From Nitrospirales bacterium (GTDB lineage: Bacteria; Nitrospirota; Nitrospiria; Nitrospirales; UBA8639), in contig OY729426.1 in the NCBI GenBank assembly GCA_963422365.1, forward strand, positions 1,664,001 to 1,728,000: a DNA stretch of 64,000 nt, given 5' to 3'. Positions 2,376-34,652 of this stretch are shown here, piece by piece. The notes below the pieces were generated by a model that worked only from the letters and a program-made list of their open reading frames with translations, had not been told where the DNA came from and searched no databases. Positions within the stretch are counted from its first letter, which is position 1. Every line of letters starts with the position of its first letter. Both the position numbers and the translations under genes were made by a program.

Positions 2376-2503
2376 GGTCCGACCTGAAGCAAGTCACCGG
2401 AGGAAAGACCTCATCAGACCAAAGCTAGTCGCCATCAGAACGAGCCAGCCCATCATAGGGTGTGACGGAGAGGGTGGTGACTGAACGTGGACGGAGGGCC
2501 GTG

Positions 2504-5500
2504 ATGAACCGACACCGACACTTTCACCCTGTGAAGAGATTGAACCACGTCCCTGGTCTGCGGGCTCTCACCGCCTCCTTCATCACCCTCCCCCCCCCCC
2601 CCCCCCCCTCCCCCCCCCCCCTGAAATTTCTGTTCGGCACCCTAACTTCTGAACCCCGGCGGTACCTCGCCGCGACCCTCGGCCTGATCCTCTCTCTCAT
2701 CTGTGTCCTGCCGGTCGCCGCACAGACCTCCCCAGGCGTCACGACTTCCCCCCCGGCGGCCCCTGCCGGGCTCACAGTGATTGCGCGCAGTGGCAAAGTC
2801 AAGTTTCGGTGGACCGATCCCAACAATGCTGCCATCACCGGGTATCAGTATAAACGATGGACGGGCAAGACCGAGCCTGCCGGTGGCTGGGTATACTTTG
2901 CCGGTACGTCGAGTGCGACGACGCAGGCCCGCTCGGTACGGGGGCTGACCGACGGCACCGAGTACCATTTTCGCCTTCGGGTGGTGGCCGGCAATGTGAC
3001 GGGGGCGCCGTCCGACGTGATGACCGTGACCCCGGGGCGCACGCCGACCGCGCCTAGCAACAGGCCTGTCGTCACCGCGGTACGTGGCGACGGACAAGTC
3101 ACGTTAAGCTGGGGTCATCCCAATAATGGTGCCATTATCAAATATCAGATCCGGCGGCGGGGCGTGCCGATTGCACACGTCGGGAGTAAACCCGACTGGA
3201 ATGCCTGGAGCGACATTCCGGGCAGCGACAAAGACACCATCCGGCACGTGGTGACCGGGTTACCCGCCGGCGTGAAATACTACTTTCGCCTTCGGGCGGT
3301 GGCCGGTGACTATGTTCATGGGCCGGCGGCCTATGGGCCGGCATCCAGTGTCATCGGGGTCAAGCTGGTCGCGGCGCCAGCGGCACCGCCGCCCAAACCC
3401 ACCGGCCTTGCGAAGGTCATTGGCAACGGCCAAGTGACATTAACCTGGGACAATCCCAACAATCTTGCCATCACCGGGTATCAATATAAATACTGGAGTG
3501 GCACCCCCGAGAGCGGCCGCTGGAGCGAGGTGTCGGGCAGTGACAAAGACACCATCAGCCACGTGGTGACGGGGTTGACCAACGGCACCAAATACCACTT
3601 CCGCCTTCGGGCGCTGGTCGGGCGGGTTGCCGGAGTGAAGTCCCGTTCCACTAGTGCCACACCGGCGGTCCCGCCGGCACAGTTAGCGCCGACTGCAATC
3701 AGTGCGCATGTCGGGTACAGACAAGTCGAGTTGATCTGGCGTGATCCGAGTCTGAGGGATCAGAAGGACACCACCATCACCAAATACCAGATCAAATACT
3801 GGAGCGGCCCGAGCGAGACGGGGGCCTGGCGGGACATTTCCGCCACGATCAACACCAGACACGCCTACTACATCGTGACGGGGCTGACCAACAGCGTGCC
3901 GTACAATTTCCGGCTTCGTGGGTTGACGAACGGGTTTGTGGTGACCGAGTCCAACCGCGTGCAAGCGAGCCCGGTGGCGCCGCCGCCGAACACCCCCGCC
4001 CGCCCTCAGGCGGTGGCCGGCGACGGTGAAATAACGTTAACCTGGGCCAATCCCAACAACCGCGACATCACCGGCTATCAGATTCGGCAATGGACGGGCG
4101 GTGGGGAGCGAGGCAGTTGGAGTGCTTGGAGCGACATCCCGGGCAGCGACAAAGCCACCACCGGCTATACCGTGAGTGGGCTGACCAACGGGGTGAAATA
4201 CAGCTTTCGCATTCGGGCGGTCGCGGGCAGGGTGACGGGGTCGCAGTCCCCCTACACCGCCGTCGTAATCCCCGGGGCCACGCCGAGGGCCGGCAGAGTG
4301 ACGAGAGCGGCGGCGGCCGGGGGGCTCACCGTCATCGGGGCGGACCCGGGCACGCTCGACATCACGGGCGACCGCATCACCGCCACGGTGGGCGGCACGG
4401 GGGTGGGGCTGACGCTGCCGTCTGCACACGGCGTCACCCGGGTCACCTTCTCGAGGCCGCCGCGGGCAGCCGTCCCGGCACCGCAGGCTGGGGTGACCTT
4501 TGGAGCGGCAGCGGCCTACGTGAACGTGGAGCTAGACCCGCCGCTGCCCTCAGCCTCACCGGCCACGGTCTGTCTGCACCGGCCGGCCGGGCTGTCGGGC
4601 CATGCCGCGGTCTATCACCTGGCCGAGCAGGGCCGTGAGTGGGAAGCACTGGCCGGGGCCGGCCCCGAGCATCAGGCCCGGCGACCGGGGGACATCTGCA
4701 GCAGCCTGCGAAGTGGGTCGCCGGTTGTCGTCGGGACCCGAACCGTGGAGGGGGCCACCCACACCCGTGACGCCGACCCCCTGGGCGTCACGTTATCCGA
4801 CACCCGTGTCACGGTCACCGAAGCCAGTGGTGCCGGGCGCACCGCCACCTACACCGTGGGGCTCACGGCCCAGCCGAGTAGCGCTGTCACCATCACCCCG
4901 ACCAGCGGCGAGCCTGGCGTGGCCACCATCACCCCCTCATCCATCACCTTCACCCCCGCCAACTGGGACACGGCCCAGGCCGTCACCGTCACCGGGGTGG
5001 ATGACCGCGTTGATGCGGATCGCCGGACGACCATTACCCATACCGTCACCGGGGGGGGCTATGACGCGGTACGTATCCCCGACGTGGCCGTCACGCTGAC
5101 GGATGACGACACGGTAGCGGCCCGGCTCTTCGGCTTTGCCGGGGACACCCTGACCGTCACCGAGGCCGACGGCGCCATGCACCGCACCTACTACCAAATC
5201 GTCCTGCAAAGCCAGCCGACCGGCGCCGTCACCATCATTCCCACCAGCGGGAAGACCGGCGTAGCCACCGTCACCCCTTCATCCATCACCTTCACCGCTG
5301 ATACCTGGGCCGAGCCACAGAGCCTCGCGGTCACCGGCGTGGACGACCACGTTGATGGGGGAGACCGACGCACCACCATTACCCATACCGTCTCTGGGGG
5401 CGGCTACGACGCGGTGCGCATTCCCGACGTGGCCGTCACGCTGACGGATGACGACGTGGCCGGCATCACCGTTACCGAGACGGATGGCCACACCGTGACC

Positions 5501-7936
5501 ACCGAAGGGGGGAGTCGCGACAGCGTCAGCGTGGTGTTAGACAGCCAGCCCACGGCCGAGGTCACCCTCACCGTCTCGAGTTCCGACGTGAGTGAAGGCA
5601 CTGTTGACACGAGCCGCCTGGTCTTCACCCCCCACAACTGGGCCACCGCGCAGGTGATCACGGTCACCGGGGTGGATGACCGGTTGGATGATGGCGAGCA
5701 GTCGTACAAGATCGAACTGGGTATCGCAGCCAGTCGCGACAGCCACTACAATGGGCTCAAGCCTGATGATGTGGTGGTCACCTCGACGGGCGCGTTCTTC
5801 GTTGAACTCACCGGGGTTGTCCTGGGCACGACCAAGATAGAGGGCTACACCATCACCACACAGGTAGACGGGGCGGGGGTGCAGTTGACGCTGCCGGCCG
5901 GGCACGGGGTGACCAAGGTGGCGTTTGCGGTGCCCCGCGCCCGGCCGGCGGCGCCGGCCGGGGTGACCTTTGGGGCCGAGCCGGCCTCCCTGGAGATCCG
6001 GCTGGACGCGCCGCTCGCCTCAGCGGCCACGGTCTGTCTGCACCGGCCCGCCGGGCTGTCGGGGACGCTGTTTGTGTATCATCTTGCCGATAAGGCCCAG
6101 ACGTGGGAGAAACTGTTGCCCGCAGCGGCGCCCCGCGGGTATGTCTGCGGCGAAACAGGCAGCTTTTCGGTGTTTGTCGTGGGGTCGCCCCTGCCGGTTT
6201 TTGGGGCAGCCTCGATTGAGGACTACAGCTGGACGGTTGGGGAGGCCCTCGGCCGGGTGCGGCTGCCGGCAGCCACGGGGGGCGACGGGCCGATCACCTA
6301 CCGGCTGAGTCCGGCTCTCCCGGCGGGGCTCAGTTTTGAGGCATCGGCACGCACCATCACCGGCACGCCCACGGAGGCGGTGGCGAAGACGCGGTTCACC
6401 TACACGGCCACAGACACCGACGGCCAGACGGGGCAGTTGCACTTCAGGGTGACGGTGCAGGCTGCTGAGGTGACGCACCGTTCCCGGGCGCTCACGGTAG
6501 CCCTCGCGGCGTTCGGGCGGACGGCCGCCACCGAGGCGGTAGACGTAATCGGGCGCCGGTTTGAGGCGGCGCCGGTCACGACGCCGGCGGTCACGGTGGG
6601 GGGCACGGCAGTCCCCGCCCTGGACGTCCGGTCCGTAGCGGGGGTGTTGGGCGGGGTGCTGGGCCTGACGGGAGCGAGCCGGGACTCGGCCGGCCGAGGC
6701 CGAGCGGCCGAGGGCCGGGTGGCCCCGAGCCGGTCCCCGCGACTTGCGGCCACGGACGTGTTTGCGCGCAGCGAGTTTGCCGTGCCGTTGACCAGGACGA
6801 ACGAGGGTGAATTGACAACGGGCTGGACCTTCTGGGGCACGGGGGCAGCCAGCGGCTTTTCCAGTCGGCTCCTGGAGACCGACGGGGCGTTCTACACGGG
6901 CTACGTAGGCCTGGACTACCGGTTTGGGCAGAAGGGGCTGGCGGGCGTCGCGGTGTCGCACAGCGTGGGGGGCCTGGACTACGAGGTCGCGGGGGACTTT
7001 CTCCTGGTCAGCGGCGAGCGAGGGGGCATCCGGGGCGAGGTAGACCTGGCCATGACCAGCGTGCTGCCCTATGTCCACTACACGCCGTCTCCGGGGCTTG
7101 GGCTGTGGGGCCTCGCGGGCGCGGGCGCCGGGGAGCTGGAGGTGCAAGACGCCGCCGGGCGCGTGGAGACGGACGTTCAGTTGCTGCTGGCCGCGGTAGG
7201 CGGGCGGCAGGCGCTGACCACGTGGCACGGGATCGAGGTGGCGGTAAAATCCGATGCGTTTGCCGTGCGGGTGAAAGCGGACGAAGCCGCGGGGCTGGCG
7301 GCGGTGACCGGGGTGGCGCACCGGGCGCGGGTGGCGCTGGCGATGAAGACGGACGTGGCCCTGTCACCAGAGTCGGCCCTGCAGCCCAGTGTGGAGCTGG
7401 GGGGGCGCTGGGACAACGGCGACGCCGAGACGGGGATGGGAGCAGAGCTCAGCGGCGGGGTCGAGTATCAGCAGAGGCGGTGGGGGGTGAGTCTCGCGGC
7501 TCGCGGCCGGTATCTGCTGGCGCATCAGGCAACGGACTTTGAGGCTTGGGGCGGCAGTCTCGCCGTGAAAGTAGGAGAGGGGCTGGGGGGGCAGGGGCTG
7601 TGGGTGGCGTTCGAGCCGACGTGGGGCACCCCAGCCAGCGGCGTGGAGCAGCTGTGGGGCCGTGAGGCCGGGCCGGCCGGCAACGGGGCGCCCGCGGGCG
7701 GGGCCGTGGGCCGGCTGACGGCGGACGTTGGCTATGGGCTGGCCCTGCGCCGGCCCGGGTGGCTGGTCACGCCCTACGGGGGCGTCGCCACCGGGCCGGC
7801 TACCAGCCGGTACCGGCTGGGCGGCCACCTCCAGGTCCACGAGACCATGGCCCTCAGCCTCGAGGGGATACAGCAAACCACCCTTGACAGCGCCACTGAG
7901 CACGGCATCGTGTTCTCCTGGACGGTGGGCTTGTAG
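2504..7936 (+). CDS. Large autotransporter adhesin: 5 FN3 repeats, 2 copies of an uncharacterised ~135-aa domain, 3 Calx-beta-like repeats, putative Ig (He_PIG) domain and C-terminal beta-barrel
   Basis: FN3 motifs (GQVTLTW..ITGYQY..VTGLTNGTKYHFRLRA), Calx-beta-like VTVTGVDD/VTLTDDD repeats, LPAGLSF..RTITGTPT and amphipathic C-terminal strands. ATG 2504 follows GGAGG; the ORF track starts at GTG 2462. Confidence 0.85.
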   Translation: MNRHRHFHPVKRLNHVPGLRALTASFITLPPPPPPSPPPLKFLFGTLTSEPRRYLAATLGLILSLICVLPVAAQTSPGVTTSPPAAPAGLTVIARSGKVKFRWTDPNNAAITGYQYKRWTGKTEPAGGWVYFAGTSSATTQARSVRGLTDGTEYHFRLRVVAGNVTGAPSDVMTVTPGRTPTAPSNRPVVTAVRGDGQVTLSWGHPNNGAIIKYQIRRRGVPIAHVGSKPDWNAWSDIPGSDKDTIRHVVTGLPAGVKYYFRLRAVAGDYVHGPAAYGPASSVIGVKLVAAPAAPPPKPTGLAKVIGNGQVTLTWDNPNNLAITGYQYKYWSGTPESGRWSEVSGSDKDTISHVVTGLTNGTKYHFRLRALVGRVAGVKSRSTSATPAVPPAQLAPTAISAHVGYRQVELIWRDPSLRDQKDTTITKYQIKYWSGPSETGAWRDISATINTRHAYYIVTGLTNSVPYNFRLRGLTNGFVVTESNRVQASPVAPPPNTPARPQAVAGDGEITLTWANPNNRDITGYQIRQWTGGGERGSWSAWSDIPGSDKATTGYTVSGLTNGVKYSFRIRAVAGRVTGSQSPYTAVVIPGATPRAGRVTRAAAAGGLTVIGADPGTLDITGDRITATVGGTGVGLTLPSAHGVTRVTFSRPPRAAVPAPQAGVTFGAAAAYVNVELDPPLPSASPATVCLHRPAGLSGHAAVYHLAEQGREWEALAGAGPEHQARRPGDICSSLRSGSPVVVGTRTVEGATHTRDADPLGVTLSDTRVTVTEASGAGRTATYTVGLTAQPSSAVTITPTSGEPGVATITPSSITFTPANWDTAQAVTVTGVDDRVDADRRTTITHTVTGGGYDAVRIPDVAVTLTDDDTVAARLFGFAGDTLTVTEADGAMHRTYYQIVLQSQPTGAVTIIPTSGKTGVATVTPSSITFTADTWAEPQSLAVTGVDDHVDGGDRRTTITHTVSGGGYDAVRIPDVAVTLTDDDVAGITVTETDGHTVTTEGGSRDSVSVVLDSQPTAEVTLTVSSSDVSEGTVDTSRLVFTPHNWATAQVITVTGVDDRLDDGEQSYKIELGIAASRDSHYNGLKPDDVVVTSTGAFFVELTGVVLGTTKIEGYTITTQVDGAGVQLTLPAGHGVTKVAFAVPRARPAAPAGVTFGAEPASLEIRLDAPLASAATVCLHRPAGLSGTLFVYHLADKAQTWEKLLPAAAPRGYVCGETGSFSVFVVGSPLPVFGAASIEDYSWTVGEALGRVRLPAATGGDGPITYRLSPALPAGLSFEASARTITGTPTEAVAKTRFTYTATDTDGQTGQLHFRVTVQAAEVTHRSRALTVALAAFGRTAATEAVDVIGRRFEAAPVTTPAVTVGGTAVPALDVRSVAGVLGGVLGLTGASRDSAGRGRAAEGRVAPSRSPRLAATDVFARSEFAVPLTRTNEGELTTGWTFWGTGAASGFSSRLLETDGAFYTGYVGLDYRFGQKGLAGVAVSHSVGGLDYEVAGDFLLVSGERGGIRGEVDLAMTSVLPYVHYTPSPGLGLWGLAGAGAGELEVQDAAGRVETDVQLLLAAVGGRQALTTWHGIEVAVKSDAFAVRVKADEAAGLAAVTGVAHRARVALAMKTDVALSPESALQPSVELGGRWDNGDAETGMGAELSGGVEYQQRRWGVSLAARGRYLLAHQATDFEAWGGSLAVKVGEGLGGQGLWVAFEPTWGTPASGVEQLWGREAGPAGNGAPAGGAVGRLTADVGYGLALRRPGWLVTPYGGVATGPATSRYRLGGHLQVHETMALSLEGIQQTTLDSATEHGIVFSWTVGL
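2590..2621 (+). repeat. Homopolymer tract C19-T-C12 in the 5' coding region of the autotransporter
   Basis: Read directly from the sequence; encodes poly-Pro ahead of the signal h-region. Confidence 0.9.
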
Positions 7937-8181: not shown

Positions 8182-8210
8182 TTGACGGCCTCGGGGCGAG
8201 AGGGGAGCGT
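8182..8210 (+). promoter_or_regulatory. Candidate promoter for the 8215-8289 structured RNA (degenerate -10)
   Basis: TTGACG (8182-8187), a 17-bp spacer, then GAGCGT (8205-8210). The predicted +1 (~8216) coincides with the first stem. Confidence 0.3.
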
Positions 8211-8214
8211 GTTC

Positions 8215-8289
8215 GTGGCGCCGGAGTCATGTTCGTCATGACCTGATCCTTCGGGGCAGCGCGGGTGGCTGCGGCCCGCCCGGCGCCAC
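8215..8289 (+). ncRNA. Putative tRNA-like four-way-junction RNA adjacent to the PBECR2 nuclease gene
   Basis: 10-bp closing stem GTGGCGCCGG/CCGGCGCCAC encloses three arms: GTCATG-TTCGT-CATGAC, CTGATCC-TTCG-GGGCAG (cUUCGg tetraloop) and GCGGG-N9-CCCGC stacked directly on the closing stem. Confidence 0.5.
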
Positions 8290-8968
8290 CTATACCCCGC
8301 CCACCCGCTTCAACATCCGCCGTCCCTGCTCCACCTGGTGCCGCCGAGCCCGCGTGTAGCTCACCGGATACGTTTCCCGCCCGTCTGTTGTGCGTTTAAT
8401 CACGGCGCACCACCAGCGGCTATCCTCTGCCACGAAGCCCCCGAGCACTCCCGGGCGCTCGGCCGACTGGAACACGGCCCCCACGTCGAGTACGTGCTGC
8501 AGGCGCTGATAATCCCGGGGTGTCACGTCGGAATGCCGTTCGGCTTTGTTTGGCCGCGGTCCAGGCCGAGAGGCGCACGGTGGGCGAGGTCGCGCCGAGG
8601 GCGGTGGCCACTGACTCGGGCAGCCGGGCGACAGGCTGCGCTCCGGGGATCGGCTGCCGGAGGAACGCGGCAAACGCCGGGCTCGCCAGCCCCGGGGCCG
8701 TCACCGCGTGCGCGGTTGCGGGCGGCTGCGCCTCCAGCTGTTCGACGAGGCGCGAGGCGGCGTCTTGCGCACGTCAGGCCCCGGCCGCAGCCCGGCCCAC
8801 GTGGGACGCCCAGCCGGGATCAATCCCCACGGGCACCAGGCAGACTTGCCCGGTGCCCGTGTTGCGCAGGGCGTGGTCACGACACGGCGCACGCGCGAGA
8901 CCGACCAGCCACGCCGCGCCAGCTCGGCAGCGGAGAGTGGCACCACACGGCACCGCCACCTTGGGCAC
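8290..8968 (-). pseudogene. Frameshifted 3' remnant of a phage Mu gpF-like minor head protein with a C-terminal PBECR2-type nuclease domain
   Basis: Collinear pieces across several frame switches: WRCRVVPLSAAELARRG / RNTGTGQVCLVPVGIDPGWASHVG / PVARLPESVATALGATSPTVRLSAWTAAKQ / RHSDVTPRDYQRLQHVLDVG...WWCAVIKRTTDGRETYPVSY. Confidence 0.7.
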
Positions 8969-9169: not shown

Positions 9170-9346
9170 CGCTGTCGCCTGACCAAGCAACAGCTAGAGC
9201 GAATGCGTTGGGAGTTGGAAAAGGAACTCGAGCCTGAAGACAGCCTGATGATTGTGGGACTGTGTGGCTCGTATACGTCGAAGCTAATTGCGCGTAACAC
9301 CAAGATCGAGTGGGTCGAGGAAGAGCCTCGCTTTTGTGTGGTGTGA
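9170..9346 (+). pseudogene. cas2: 3' fragment of CRISPR-associated cas2 (type I-B/Myxan-like)
   Basis: RCRLTKQQLERMRWELEKELEPEDSLMIVGLC...RN..IEWVEEEPRFCVV* matches the Cas2 C-terminal half. The N-terminal YDI catalytic strand is absent. Confidence 0.75.
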
Positions 9347-9615
9347 ATTTTTTGGGAAAGATATAGAATTCATGCATCTCTGGGTGTTTCGAGCCATGCG
9401 CCATAAAAACGGCTAAGCACTCGTATTTTTTAAAGAAAAGAGAAATGAAGGAATAAAGGGATGCGTGAAATGAGAGAAAGTGTTGGAATATTCGTTGGTT
9501 GGATGGGAAGAGAGAGGAACATTTTGGCATTTTGTGAAGAAGCCCAATTGTGGGCAATGATTCCTTGCATAGAGTGTAAAAAAATCCAACAAAACCAGTC
9601 TCTTATTTATGGGCT
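9347..9615 (+). promoter_or_regulatory. AT-rich CRISPR leader
   Basis: Non-coding, markedly AT-rich ~270 bp between the cas2 stop and the repeat. Confidence 0.65.
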
Positions 9616-9651
9616 GTGATTACATATCAGATGCCGAAAGGCGTTGAGCAC
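9616..9651 (+). CRISPR. Single 36-bp CRISPR repeat, no array
   Basis: GTGATTACATATCAGATGCCGAAAGGCGTTGAGCAC has a GCC-GAAA-GGC hairpin and a GTTGAGCAC end typical of Myxan-type repeats. I found no second copy. Confidence 0.75.
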
Positions 9652-34575: not shown

Positions 34576-34652
34576 GCCCCCGTAGCTCAGGTGGATAGAG
34601 CAACGGTTTCCTAAACCGCAGGCCGGACGTTCGAATCGTCTCGGGGGCACCA
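34576..34652 (+). tRNA. tRNA-Arg (anticodon CCT)
   Basis: GCCCCCG/CGGGGGC acceptor stem, D-arm GCTC..GAGC, anticodon loop TTCCTAA, GTTCGAATC T-loop and encoded CCA. Confidence 0.96.

What the first reader, a model, noticed from the sequence alone, without database searches (positions are those of the whole stretch)
8182..8292. tRNA-like RNA abutting a PBECR2 nuclease gene: candidate tRNA-mimic antitoxin system
Seen: with zero gap after the stop (8290-8292) of the minus-strand MuF-PBECR2 remnant lies a 75-nt four-way junction. It has a 10-bp closing stem (8215-8224/8280-8289), arm 1 GUCAUG-UUCGU-CAUGAC, arm 2 with a cUUCGg tetraloop, and arm 3 GCGGG-N9-CCCGC running straight into the closing stem, as a tRNA T-arm joins the acceptor. 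The 3' end reads CCCGCCCGGCGCCACCU, close to a tRNA end but without the canonical T-loop, anticodon loop or intact CCA. The UUCG loop and two U-G wobbles favour the plus strand, convergent with the gene. A TTGACG-17bp-GAGCGT promoter would start transcription at the first stem. The stems are nearly perfect although the adjacent gene is frameshifted. Established: PBECR domains belong to the Barnase/EndoU/colicin E5-D/RelE RNase fold, which includes tRNases, and MuF toxins are normally followed by a protein immunity gene; none is visible here. Inference: the RNA occupies the immunity slot and may act as a decoy, antitoxin or cofactor for the nuclease, i.e. an RNA-neutralised virion-delivered toxin module. 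I cannot verify novelty without a search.
Basis: partly seen in the sequence, partly recalled or inferred. Interest (0 to 1): 0.8.

Follow-up and report, generated by a model that had tools for sequence, protein, structure and literature searches.

The report
tRNA-shaped RNA guarding phage nuclease
A small tRNA-shaped RNA gene faces the tail of a phage head-protein gene carrying a predicted RNA-cutting domain; it accompanies almost every intact copy of that domain in related phages and is mostly missing where the domain has decayed, so it likely neutralises the nuclease in place of an immunity protein (untested), though this window's copy is a decaying relic.

Summary
The structure is real. 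8215-8289 (+) is a 75-nt cloverleaf facing the stop of a broken Mu-type MuF gene. A model built from seven foreign RNAs scores it E 2e-12 and finds four copies in the genome, one at each MuF-tail locus. The tail is a BECR-fold, PBECR-clan domain, not a Pfam PBECR2 member. Stems and a loop-loop pseudoknot, where tRNA has its D/T elbow, covary. In held-out loci an RNA accompanies 32 of 33 intact domains, 2 of 5 decayed ones, 0 of 21 other tails and 1 of 20 tail-less MuFs. Phage Mu lacks both the His helix and the RNA; its E. coli relatives keep the helix and carry an annotated 'tRNA-OTHER' there. Best reading (0.55): a tRNA-mimic RNA antitoxin. Toxicity, expression and binding are untested. The window copy has a decayed -10 box and a frameshifted gene; an intact pair lies elsewhere in the genome. 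No Rfam family or paper was found. This scan noted the same pairing earlier on other DNA (e1-6788319).

The parts
8182..8187 (+). -35 box (TTGACG) of the convergent sigma70-type promoter
   Evidence: Sequence; same position in paralogs and a relative
8205..8210 (+). Decayed -10 box (GAGCGT; homologs have TAGTCT, TATGCT or TATGGT)
   Evidence: not called by the consensus scan
8215..8289 (+). tRNA-shaped RNA gene: acceptor-like stem 8215-8224/8280-8289, D-like arm 8226-8242, variable arm 8243-8259, T-like arm 8261-8279
   Evidence: Fold; model R2 built without this genome's copies gives 58.3 bits, E 2e-12; covariation
8233..8274 (+). Predicted loop-loop pseudoknot, 8233-8236 pairing with 8271-8274; here two G-U wobbles and the fifth family pair broken
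   Evidence: Family covariation; this copy alone scores below non-cognate pairs
8290..8545 (-). 3' part of the PBECR-clan (BECR-fold) tail domain of MuF, stop at 8290-8292; keeps the helix His and the terminal-strand Ser; frameshifted against the upstream part near 8545
   Evidence: family profile E 1e-24; fold of the intact paralog
8546..8964 (-). Broken MuF remnant (linker and end of the MuF domain); in-frame TGA at 8774-8776; 5' part missing

Best explanation
The element is a conserved tRNA-shaped small RNA gene that lies tail-to-tail with phage MuF genes carrying a BECR-fold tail, and it likely acts as an RNA antitoxin, a tRNA-mimicking decoy that would bind and block that predicted tRNA-cutting domain. 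Shown: the cloverleaf with a coaxial acceptor-like stem and T-like arm, the covarying loop-loop pairing, the convergent promoter motif, the BECR fold of the tail, and the link between an intact tail and the RNA. Inferred: the RNA is made from its own host-type promoter in the lysogen and during head assembly; it folds into an L shape closed by Watson-Crick loop-loop pairs in place of the tRNA elbow; it occupies the tRNA-binding site of the tail; and in a cell lacking the RNA the tail would cut host tRNA. The invariant part is the acceptor/T half while the anticodon-position arm varies freely, which suggests recognition of the top half of tRNA. In this window the gene is broken and the promoter decayed, so this copy is probably an inactive relic; the intact pair is at G000:C1 about 2,212,230-2,213,610.
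For: Membership: R2 hits the window at E 2e-12 and only the four MuF-tail loci in 2.5 Mb. L193, an alphaproteobacterial MAG, has an intact gene and a near-identical RNA. Covariation: window subfamily 94% of cells paired, 8 of 17 pairs with double changes; second subfamily 95%, 18 of 28, including 3 of 5 pseudoknot pairs; cognate loops pair better than swapped ones, 12.6 vs 10.7, 0 of 20,000 permutations. Association, first set: fixed test passed by 28 of 38 family loci vs 0 of 29 short MuFs, 1 of 12 non-PBECR tails and 8 of 733 other stops. Held-out set: 21 of 33 intact by the unchanged test, 32 of 33 with the models, vs 0 of 21 other tails and 1 of 20 short. Intact 36 of 39 vs decayed 2 of 11; 8 independent pairs, mean 5.8 same way, 0 opposite, p 0.03-0.06. 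Mu gp30 and L152 lack the His helix and overlap the next gene, while relatives keep the helix and the RNA. Six of 12 non-PBECR tails are followed directly by a small ORF (92). The RNA also follows a portal-fused version of the domain (138-140, E 0.19 with a clear promoter). Fold neighbours include tRNases: CdiA NC101 Z 6.7, rmsd 3.0, 87 aligned; colicin D Z 5.0, rmsd 2.8, 78 aligned. Homologs occur behind PT-TG pre-toxin domains.
Against: No experiment, and no RNA data either way. With purely automatic RNA calls the independent-pair test is not significant (median p 0.125). Many decayed tails are cut at the C-terminus, so a single deletion could remove both tail end and RNA; only L082, Mu and L152 escape this confound. 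Four intact domains have no RNA call (L036, L125, L142, L229); MuF-C locus L024 keeps the His but shows no promoter. The RNA persists beside decayed tails (L093, L195, the window). The His is replaced by Arg or Lys in some RNA-bearing members. Fold Z scores are modest and Foldseek found nothing at E<=0.001. The broad model R1 scores the window only 18.3 bits, E 0.43. Minimum-energy folds of three homologs are weak or differ from the cloverleaf. Test criteria were designed after viewing the first set.
Confidence: 0.55

Rival explanations
1. The RNA silences the toxic gene in cis: convergent transcription or pairing with the late mRNA between MuF and the next gene lowers MuF expression in the lysogen, as in antisense (type I-like) control.
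For: The RNA is always convergent and its 3' end lies at or inside the stop (L118, L349 overlap the gene end, 75, 141). It explains the link to intact tails equally well.
Against: Antisense control needs no tRNA shape, covarying pseudoknot or GGUUCGA T-loop (53, 74, 123). The RNA is kept when displaced 180-1400 nt by inserted DNA (L098, L025, L219) and overlaps little coding sequence.
Confidence: 0.15
2. The RNA is a positive partner of the domain (cofactor, activator, substrate or cargo) that is bound and perhaps packaged into the virion and delivered with MuF, rather than an inhibitor.
For: Co-loss and subfamily-specific co-variation of RNA and tail fit any obligate partnership. Iyer et al. 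(PMC5512222, section 19) suggested PBECR domains may spare host tRNA and that Mu's inactive domain binds RNA.
Against: The asymmetry (intact tail almost never without RNA, RNA sometimes without intact tail) fits an antitoxin. Other MuF toxin tails often have a small ORF in the same slot.
Confidence: 0.17
3. The RNA is a structural prohead RNA, like phi29 pRNA (recalled), whose complementary loops pair between molecules to form a ring at the portal.
For: Two covarying complementary loops; location in the portal-MuF head module.
Against: Absent from tail-less MuF phages (0 of 29 and 1 of 20) and from phage Mu, so not needed for packaging.
Confidence: 0.05
4. It is a decayed tRNA gene, att-site scar or bidirectional terminator with no dedicated function.
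For: The MuF-C-type version is annotated tRNA-OTHER. Some copies end in U-runs.
Against: No ARAGORN or Rfam tRNA call at these sites; no match to host tRNAs; covariation, own promoter and dependence on tail type.
Confidence: 0.03

Closest known systems
Type III toxin-antitoxin systems (ToxIN, CptIN, TenpIN) and other RNA-antitoxin pairs (AbiF, AvcID); seen as search listings and abstract starts
   Same: A predicted RNase toxin paired with a dedicated structured non-coding RNA that has a pseudoknot, and no protein antitoxin.
   Different: A single convergent RNA gene downstream with its own promoter, not upstream tandem repeats in one operon (that layout is recalled). The toxin is a BECR domain fused to a phage head or portal protein, and the RNA is tRNA-shaped. 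Binding untested.
MuF polymorphic toxins of temperate phages (Jamet et al. 2017, PMC5576092; passages read)
   Same: MuF1 N-terminal domain with a variable C-terminal toxin-like domain in the head module.
   Different: They report a small ORF after 89.4% of 191 known-toxin MuF genes and leave the proteobacterial Ct_MAD extensions unexplained. Here an RNA gene occupies the slot.
PBECR domains, including MuF-C of phage Mu gp30 (Iyer et al. 2017, PMC5512222; section 19 and passages read)
   Same: [quoted passage not shown]
   Different: This tail is below all Pfam PBECR cut-offs in most members; no adjacent RNA is mentioned in what I read.
CDI and colicin tRNases (CdiA-CT NC101, colicin D; bioRxiv 10.64898/2026.08.28.747851, passages read)
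   Same: [quoted passage not shown]
   Different: Those are neutralised by protein immunity factors.
RefSeq 'tRNA-OTHER' between minor head protein and virion morphogenesis genes in E. coli Mu-like prophages
   Same: Same slot, strand and promoter arrangement; similar DNA in 230 of 5,426 genomes, annotated so in all 15 rows shown.
   Different: An automatic label with no function; it has a canonical T-loop and goes with the MuF-C tail. Homology to the window's RNA is not shown.

Membership tests
Type III toxin-antitoxin | RNA antitoxin binds and inhibits a protein toxin | not testable with these tools
   Only genomic association
Type III toxin-antitoxin | Antitoxin as tandem repeats upstream of the toxin in one operon (recalled definition) | tested here: not met
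   Single convergent RNA downstream of the gene (48, 67, 116)
Type III toxin-antitoxin | Match to Rfam ToxI-type or other curated RNA families | tested here: not met
   No hit at the element
tRNA gene | ARAGORN or Rfam RF00005 call, with anticodon loop, T-loop consensus and CCA | tested here: not met
   no GUUC T-loop in the window RNA; 3' end is the antisense of the stop codon
tRNA gene | Acceptor stem stacked directly on a 5-bp T-like arm, with D-loop/T-loop contact | tested here: met
   Covarying stems and loop-loop pairs, by Watson-Crick pairing rather than the tRNA contacts
Pfam PBECR2 (PF18810) | Score above the curated cut-off | tested here: not met
   0 of 40 aligned members hit PBECR2; 3 of 40 hit PBECR3 weakly. 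Language-model neighbours are PBECR2/3 and MuF_C clusters at 0.90-0.93 (107)
BECR-fold RNases | Helix followed by a 4-5-stranded sheet | tested here: met
   Model pLDDT 85.9 (44); top matches CdiA NC101 Z 6.7, a TA complex 5.8, BrnT 5.8, colicin D 5.0 (50); scores modest
BECR-fold RNases | [quoted passage not shown] | tested here: met
   Present in most members and in the window remnant; Arg or Lys in some
BECR-fold RNases | RNase or tRNase activity | not testable with these tools
   None
MuF polymorphic toxins | N-terminal MuF domain in a phage head module | tested here: met
   PF04233 E 5e-25 next to Portal_Mu in the intact paralog
MuF polymorphic toxins | Small immunity ORF directly downstream | tested here: not met
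   The RNA fills the gap, and in many loci the next gene is the virion morphogenesis gene (69, 86, 92); output was partly cut

The most novel reading that the evidence does not exclude
Phage PBECR nucleases as a class are controlled by dedicated tRNA-mimic RNA antitoxins encoded tail-to-tail with the toxin gene. These range from near-real tRNAs (the E. coli 'tRNA-OTHER') to cloverleaves that rebuild the elbow with a covarying kissing loop, making a widespread RNA-immunity branch of virion-borne polymorphic toxins and a natural series from tRNA to antitoxin.
Probability: 0.5. Interest if true: 0.9.

Novelty: new variant of a known kind. Interest (0 to 1): 0.78.

Why it matters
It would explain why many MuF tail domains have no recognisable immunity gene, give a function to a common 'tRNA-OTHER' annotation in E. 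coli prophages, and add substrate-mimicking RNA decoys as a way to neutralise tRNases. It makes the open question of what PBECR domains do directly testable with a two-plasmid assay, and predicts cognate specificity between RNA and domain subfamilies.

Tried and rejected
Rfam: no hit at the element, in 20 homologous loci or at the RNAs of 11 more; only a tRNA-Sec hit at E 2 for L081. ARAGORN: none at these sites. Direct searches with the window's broken fragment found nothing. GenBank phages gave no hit for the intact tail. No MuF hit in 60 relatives; 7 of 400 phylum genomes had the domain. No RNA holder was listed; DNA contigs from four runs cover the stretch, one with an extra G in the T-like arm that may be the paralog. 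The unanchored cloverleaf descriptor matched almost anything and was replaced. The broad model R1 missed all copies in the genome search. My first alignment for R2 included L281 at wrong coordinates and was redone without it. L122 was dropped from the pseudoknot permutation because the parse misplaced the arm, and L109 from the tree as a duplicate. The careful tree did not finish; the quick tree was used. No context was found for the PT-TG fusions. Literature searches listed no paper describing this pairing; the library lacks most subscription papers, and I did not open supplements of the MuF and PBECR papers, which could bear on novelty. PMC5331693 and PMC13714241 (passages) had nothing relevant. 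DUF3800, C4 and skipping-rope RNAs were recalled leads that Rfam did not support.

Full report
Observation. The 78-nt fold is better than shuffles on both strands (z -3.3 and -3.4). It is not a tRNA or an Rfam family. The gene is a Mu-type MuF remnant: frameshift near 8545, in-frame TGA at 8774-8776, 5' part missing.

Own genome. The 2.5-Mb single-contig genome has two more broken copies with the RNA and one intact, diverged gene next to a portal gene. The intact locus has a different-sequence cloverleaf and a TTGACA-17-TATGCT promoter pointing back at the gene. Arm 1 shows a compensatory change between the window and one paralog (G-C vs U-A at its sixth pair). The window's -10 box has decayed.

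Protein. The intact tail found 132 representatives. Of 34 long ones scanned, 23 hit MuF, three PT-TG and one portal. Pfam gives only weak PBECR3 hits, 3 of 40 members, and no PBECR2; language-model neighbours are PBECR2/3 and MuF_C clusters. The predicted fold (pLDDT 85.9) best matches CdiA-CT NC101 (Z 6.7, rmsd 3.0, 87 aligned), a TA complex and BrnT (5.8) and colicin D (5.0); these scores are modest and Foldseek gave nothing at E<=0.001. The helix His and last-strand Ser/Thr that Iyer et al. give for PBECR domains (PMC5512222, section 19) are present in most members.

RNA family. From 160 MuF loci, those with this tail show a convergent sigma70-type promoter about 60-135 nt past the stop and a closing stem ending near it. 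The common plan is an acceptor-like stem, a D-like arm, a variable arm and a 5-7-bp T-like arm stacked on the closing stem. One subfamily (14 sequences) has 95.3% of cells paired and 18 of 28 pairs with double changes, including 3 of 5 pairs between the D-like and T-like loops; slid controls give 42-51%. The window's subfamily (9 sequences) has 94% and 8 of 17, pseudoknot 93% paired. Across 33 distinct RNAs cognate loops pair better than swapped ones (12.6 vs 10.7, 0 of 20,000); related sequences are not independent, and the window copy itself scored low. A broad model without this genome's copies ranked the element first in the window but not significantly (E 0.43). A model from seven closer foreign RNAs gave E 2e-12 and exactly four genome hits, the four MuF-tail loci.

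Association. A fixed structure-plus-promoter test, designed after viewing the first set, passed 28 of 38 family loci, 6 of 19 MuF-C-like, 2 of 19 PBECR2, 1 of 12 non-PBECR, 0 of 29 short MuFs and 8 of 733 other stops. A promoter-only count gave 23 of 37, 14 of 18, 16 of 19, 1 of 12 and 0 of 29, and 0 of 10 for low-scoring tails. On new loci (111 of 163 scored after dropping open, short-flanked and duplicate ones) the unchanged test passed 21 of 33 intact tails, 1 of 5 decayed, 0 of 21 other tails and 1 of 20 short. The models added 11 intact and one decayed locus, giving 32 of 33 and 2 of 5. In the first set, with six hand calls and two displaced RNAs, the counts are 36 of 39 intact and 2 of 11 decayed; eight independent pairs on a quick tree go on average 5.8 the same way and none opposite, p 0.03-0.06. 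With automatic calls alone p was 0.125. One deletion could remove both tail end and RNA in many decayed cases; L082, L152 and Mu keep the C-terminus but lack the His helix and the RNA.

Natural contrast. E. coli Mu-like prophages with a MuF-C tail that keeps the His helix have a convergent RNA annotated tRNA-OTHER; similar DNA is in 230 of 5,426 genomes. Phage Mu gp30, 52% identical in the tail, lacks that helix and overlaps gp31, leaving no room; Iyer et al. call Mu's domain inactive. Six of 12 non-PBECR tails are followed directly by a small ORF, as Jamet et al. report for 89.4% of known-toxin MuF genes (PMC5576092, passages).

Mechanism. The pattern is asymmetric: intact tails nearly always have the RNA, while the RNA sometimes outlives the tail, as in this window. 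That is what an antitoxin predicts. The conserved half is the acceptor/T stack and elbow, while the anticodon-position arm varies, and the fold neighbours include tRNases. I therefore favour a tRNA-mimic decoy (0.55). A positive partner or cargo RNA (0.17) and cis-antisense silencing (0.15) are not excluded; a packaging RNA or a scar is unlikely. Expression, toxicity, binding and virion delivery are all inferred, not shown.

Novelty. It would work like a type III toxin-antitoxin pair but fails that family's layout and Rfam tests. Ten literature searches listed no description; subscription papers and supplements were not seen. The scan recorded the same pairing once before on another genome (e1-6788319), which is not independent support. 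Added here are the tRNA-like elbow covariation, the dependence on an intact domain with controls and a held-out set, and the Mu versus tRNA-OTHER contrast.

Noticed in passing
window 2462-7936 (+): 1,824-aa fibronectin-III-rich, autotransporter-like ORF with several 94-97% identical partial copies in the genome; it forms a repeated high-GC cassette with the MuF remnant.
   Followed up: partly
window 9173-9346 and 9615-9651 (+): cas2 3' remnant (Pfam E 0.0013, below cut-off), an AT-rich stretch and a single CRISPR-DR33-like repeat found only once in the genome; the cassette seems to sit in a destroyed CRISPR-Cas locus. L002 shows a cas1-like remnant beside another copy.
   Followed up: partly
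L001 12260-15076 (G000:C1 about 2,212,260-2,215,080): A prophage remnant of about 4 kb keeps an intact portal, intact MuF-tail gene and RNA with a near-consensus promoter inside a polysaccharide gene cluster; possibly addiction-like retention.
   Followed up: partly
L255 3263-3331 and 3463-3531; L265 1548-1616 and 1761-1829: Bartonella prophages carry two tandem copies of the RNA, each behind a similar promoter-like stretch.
   Followed up: no
PBECR2-tailed loci, e.g. L023, L105, L112, L121: PBECR2 tails also have a convergent promoter (16 of 19, then 10 of 20) but differently folded RNAs that mostly fail the cloverleaf test (2 of 19, 3 of 20); probably further RNA families.
   Followed up: partly
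L348 2339-2412 (-), Azospirillum brasilense Sp7 plasmid p3: The domain is fused to a portal-like protein and followed by a convergent promoter and cloverleaf; a second stem-rich unit lies just beyond.
   Followed up: partly
L072 1934-2036 (+): Rfam sRNA-Xcc1 match downstream in a Mu-like phage.
   Followed up: no
L189-L194: One alphaproteobacterial MAG holds five loci of this gene with two RNA subtypes.
   Followed up: partly
window 34576-34652 (+): Ordinary tRNA-Arg(CCT).
   Followed up: no
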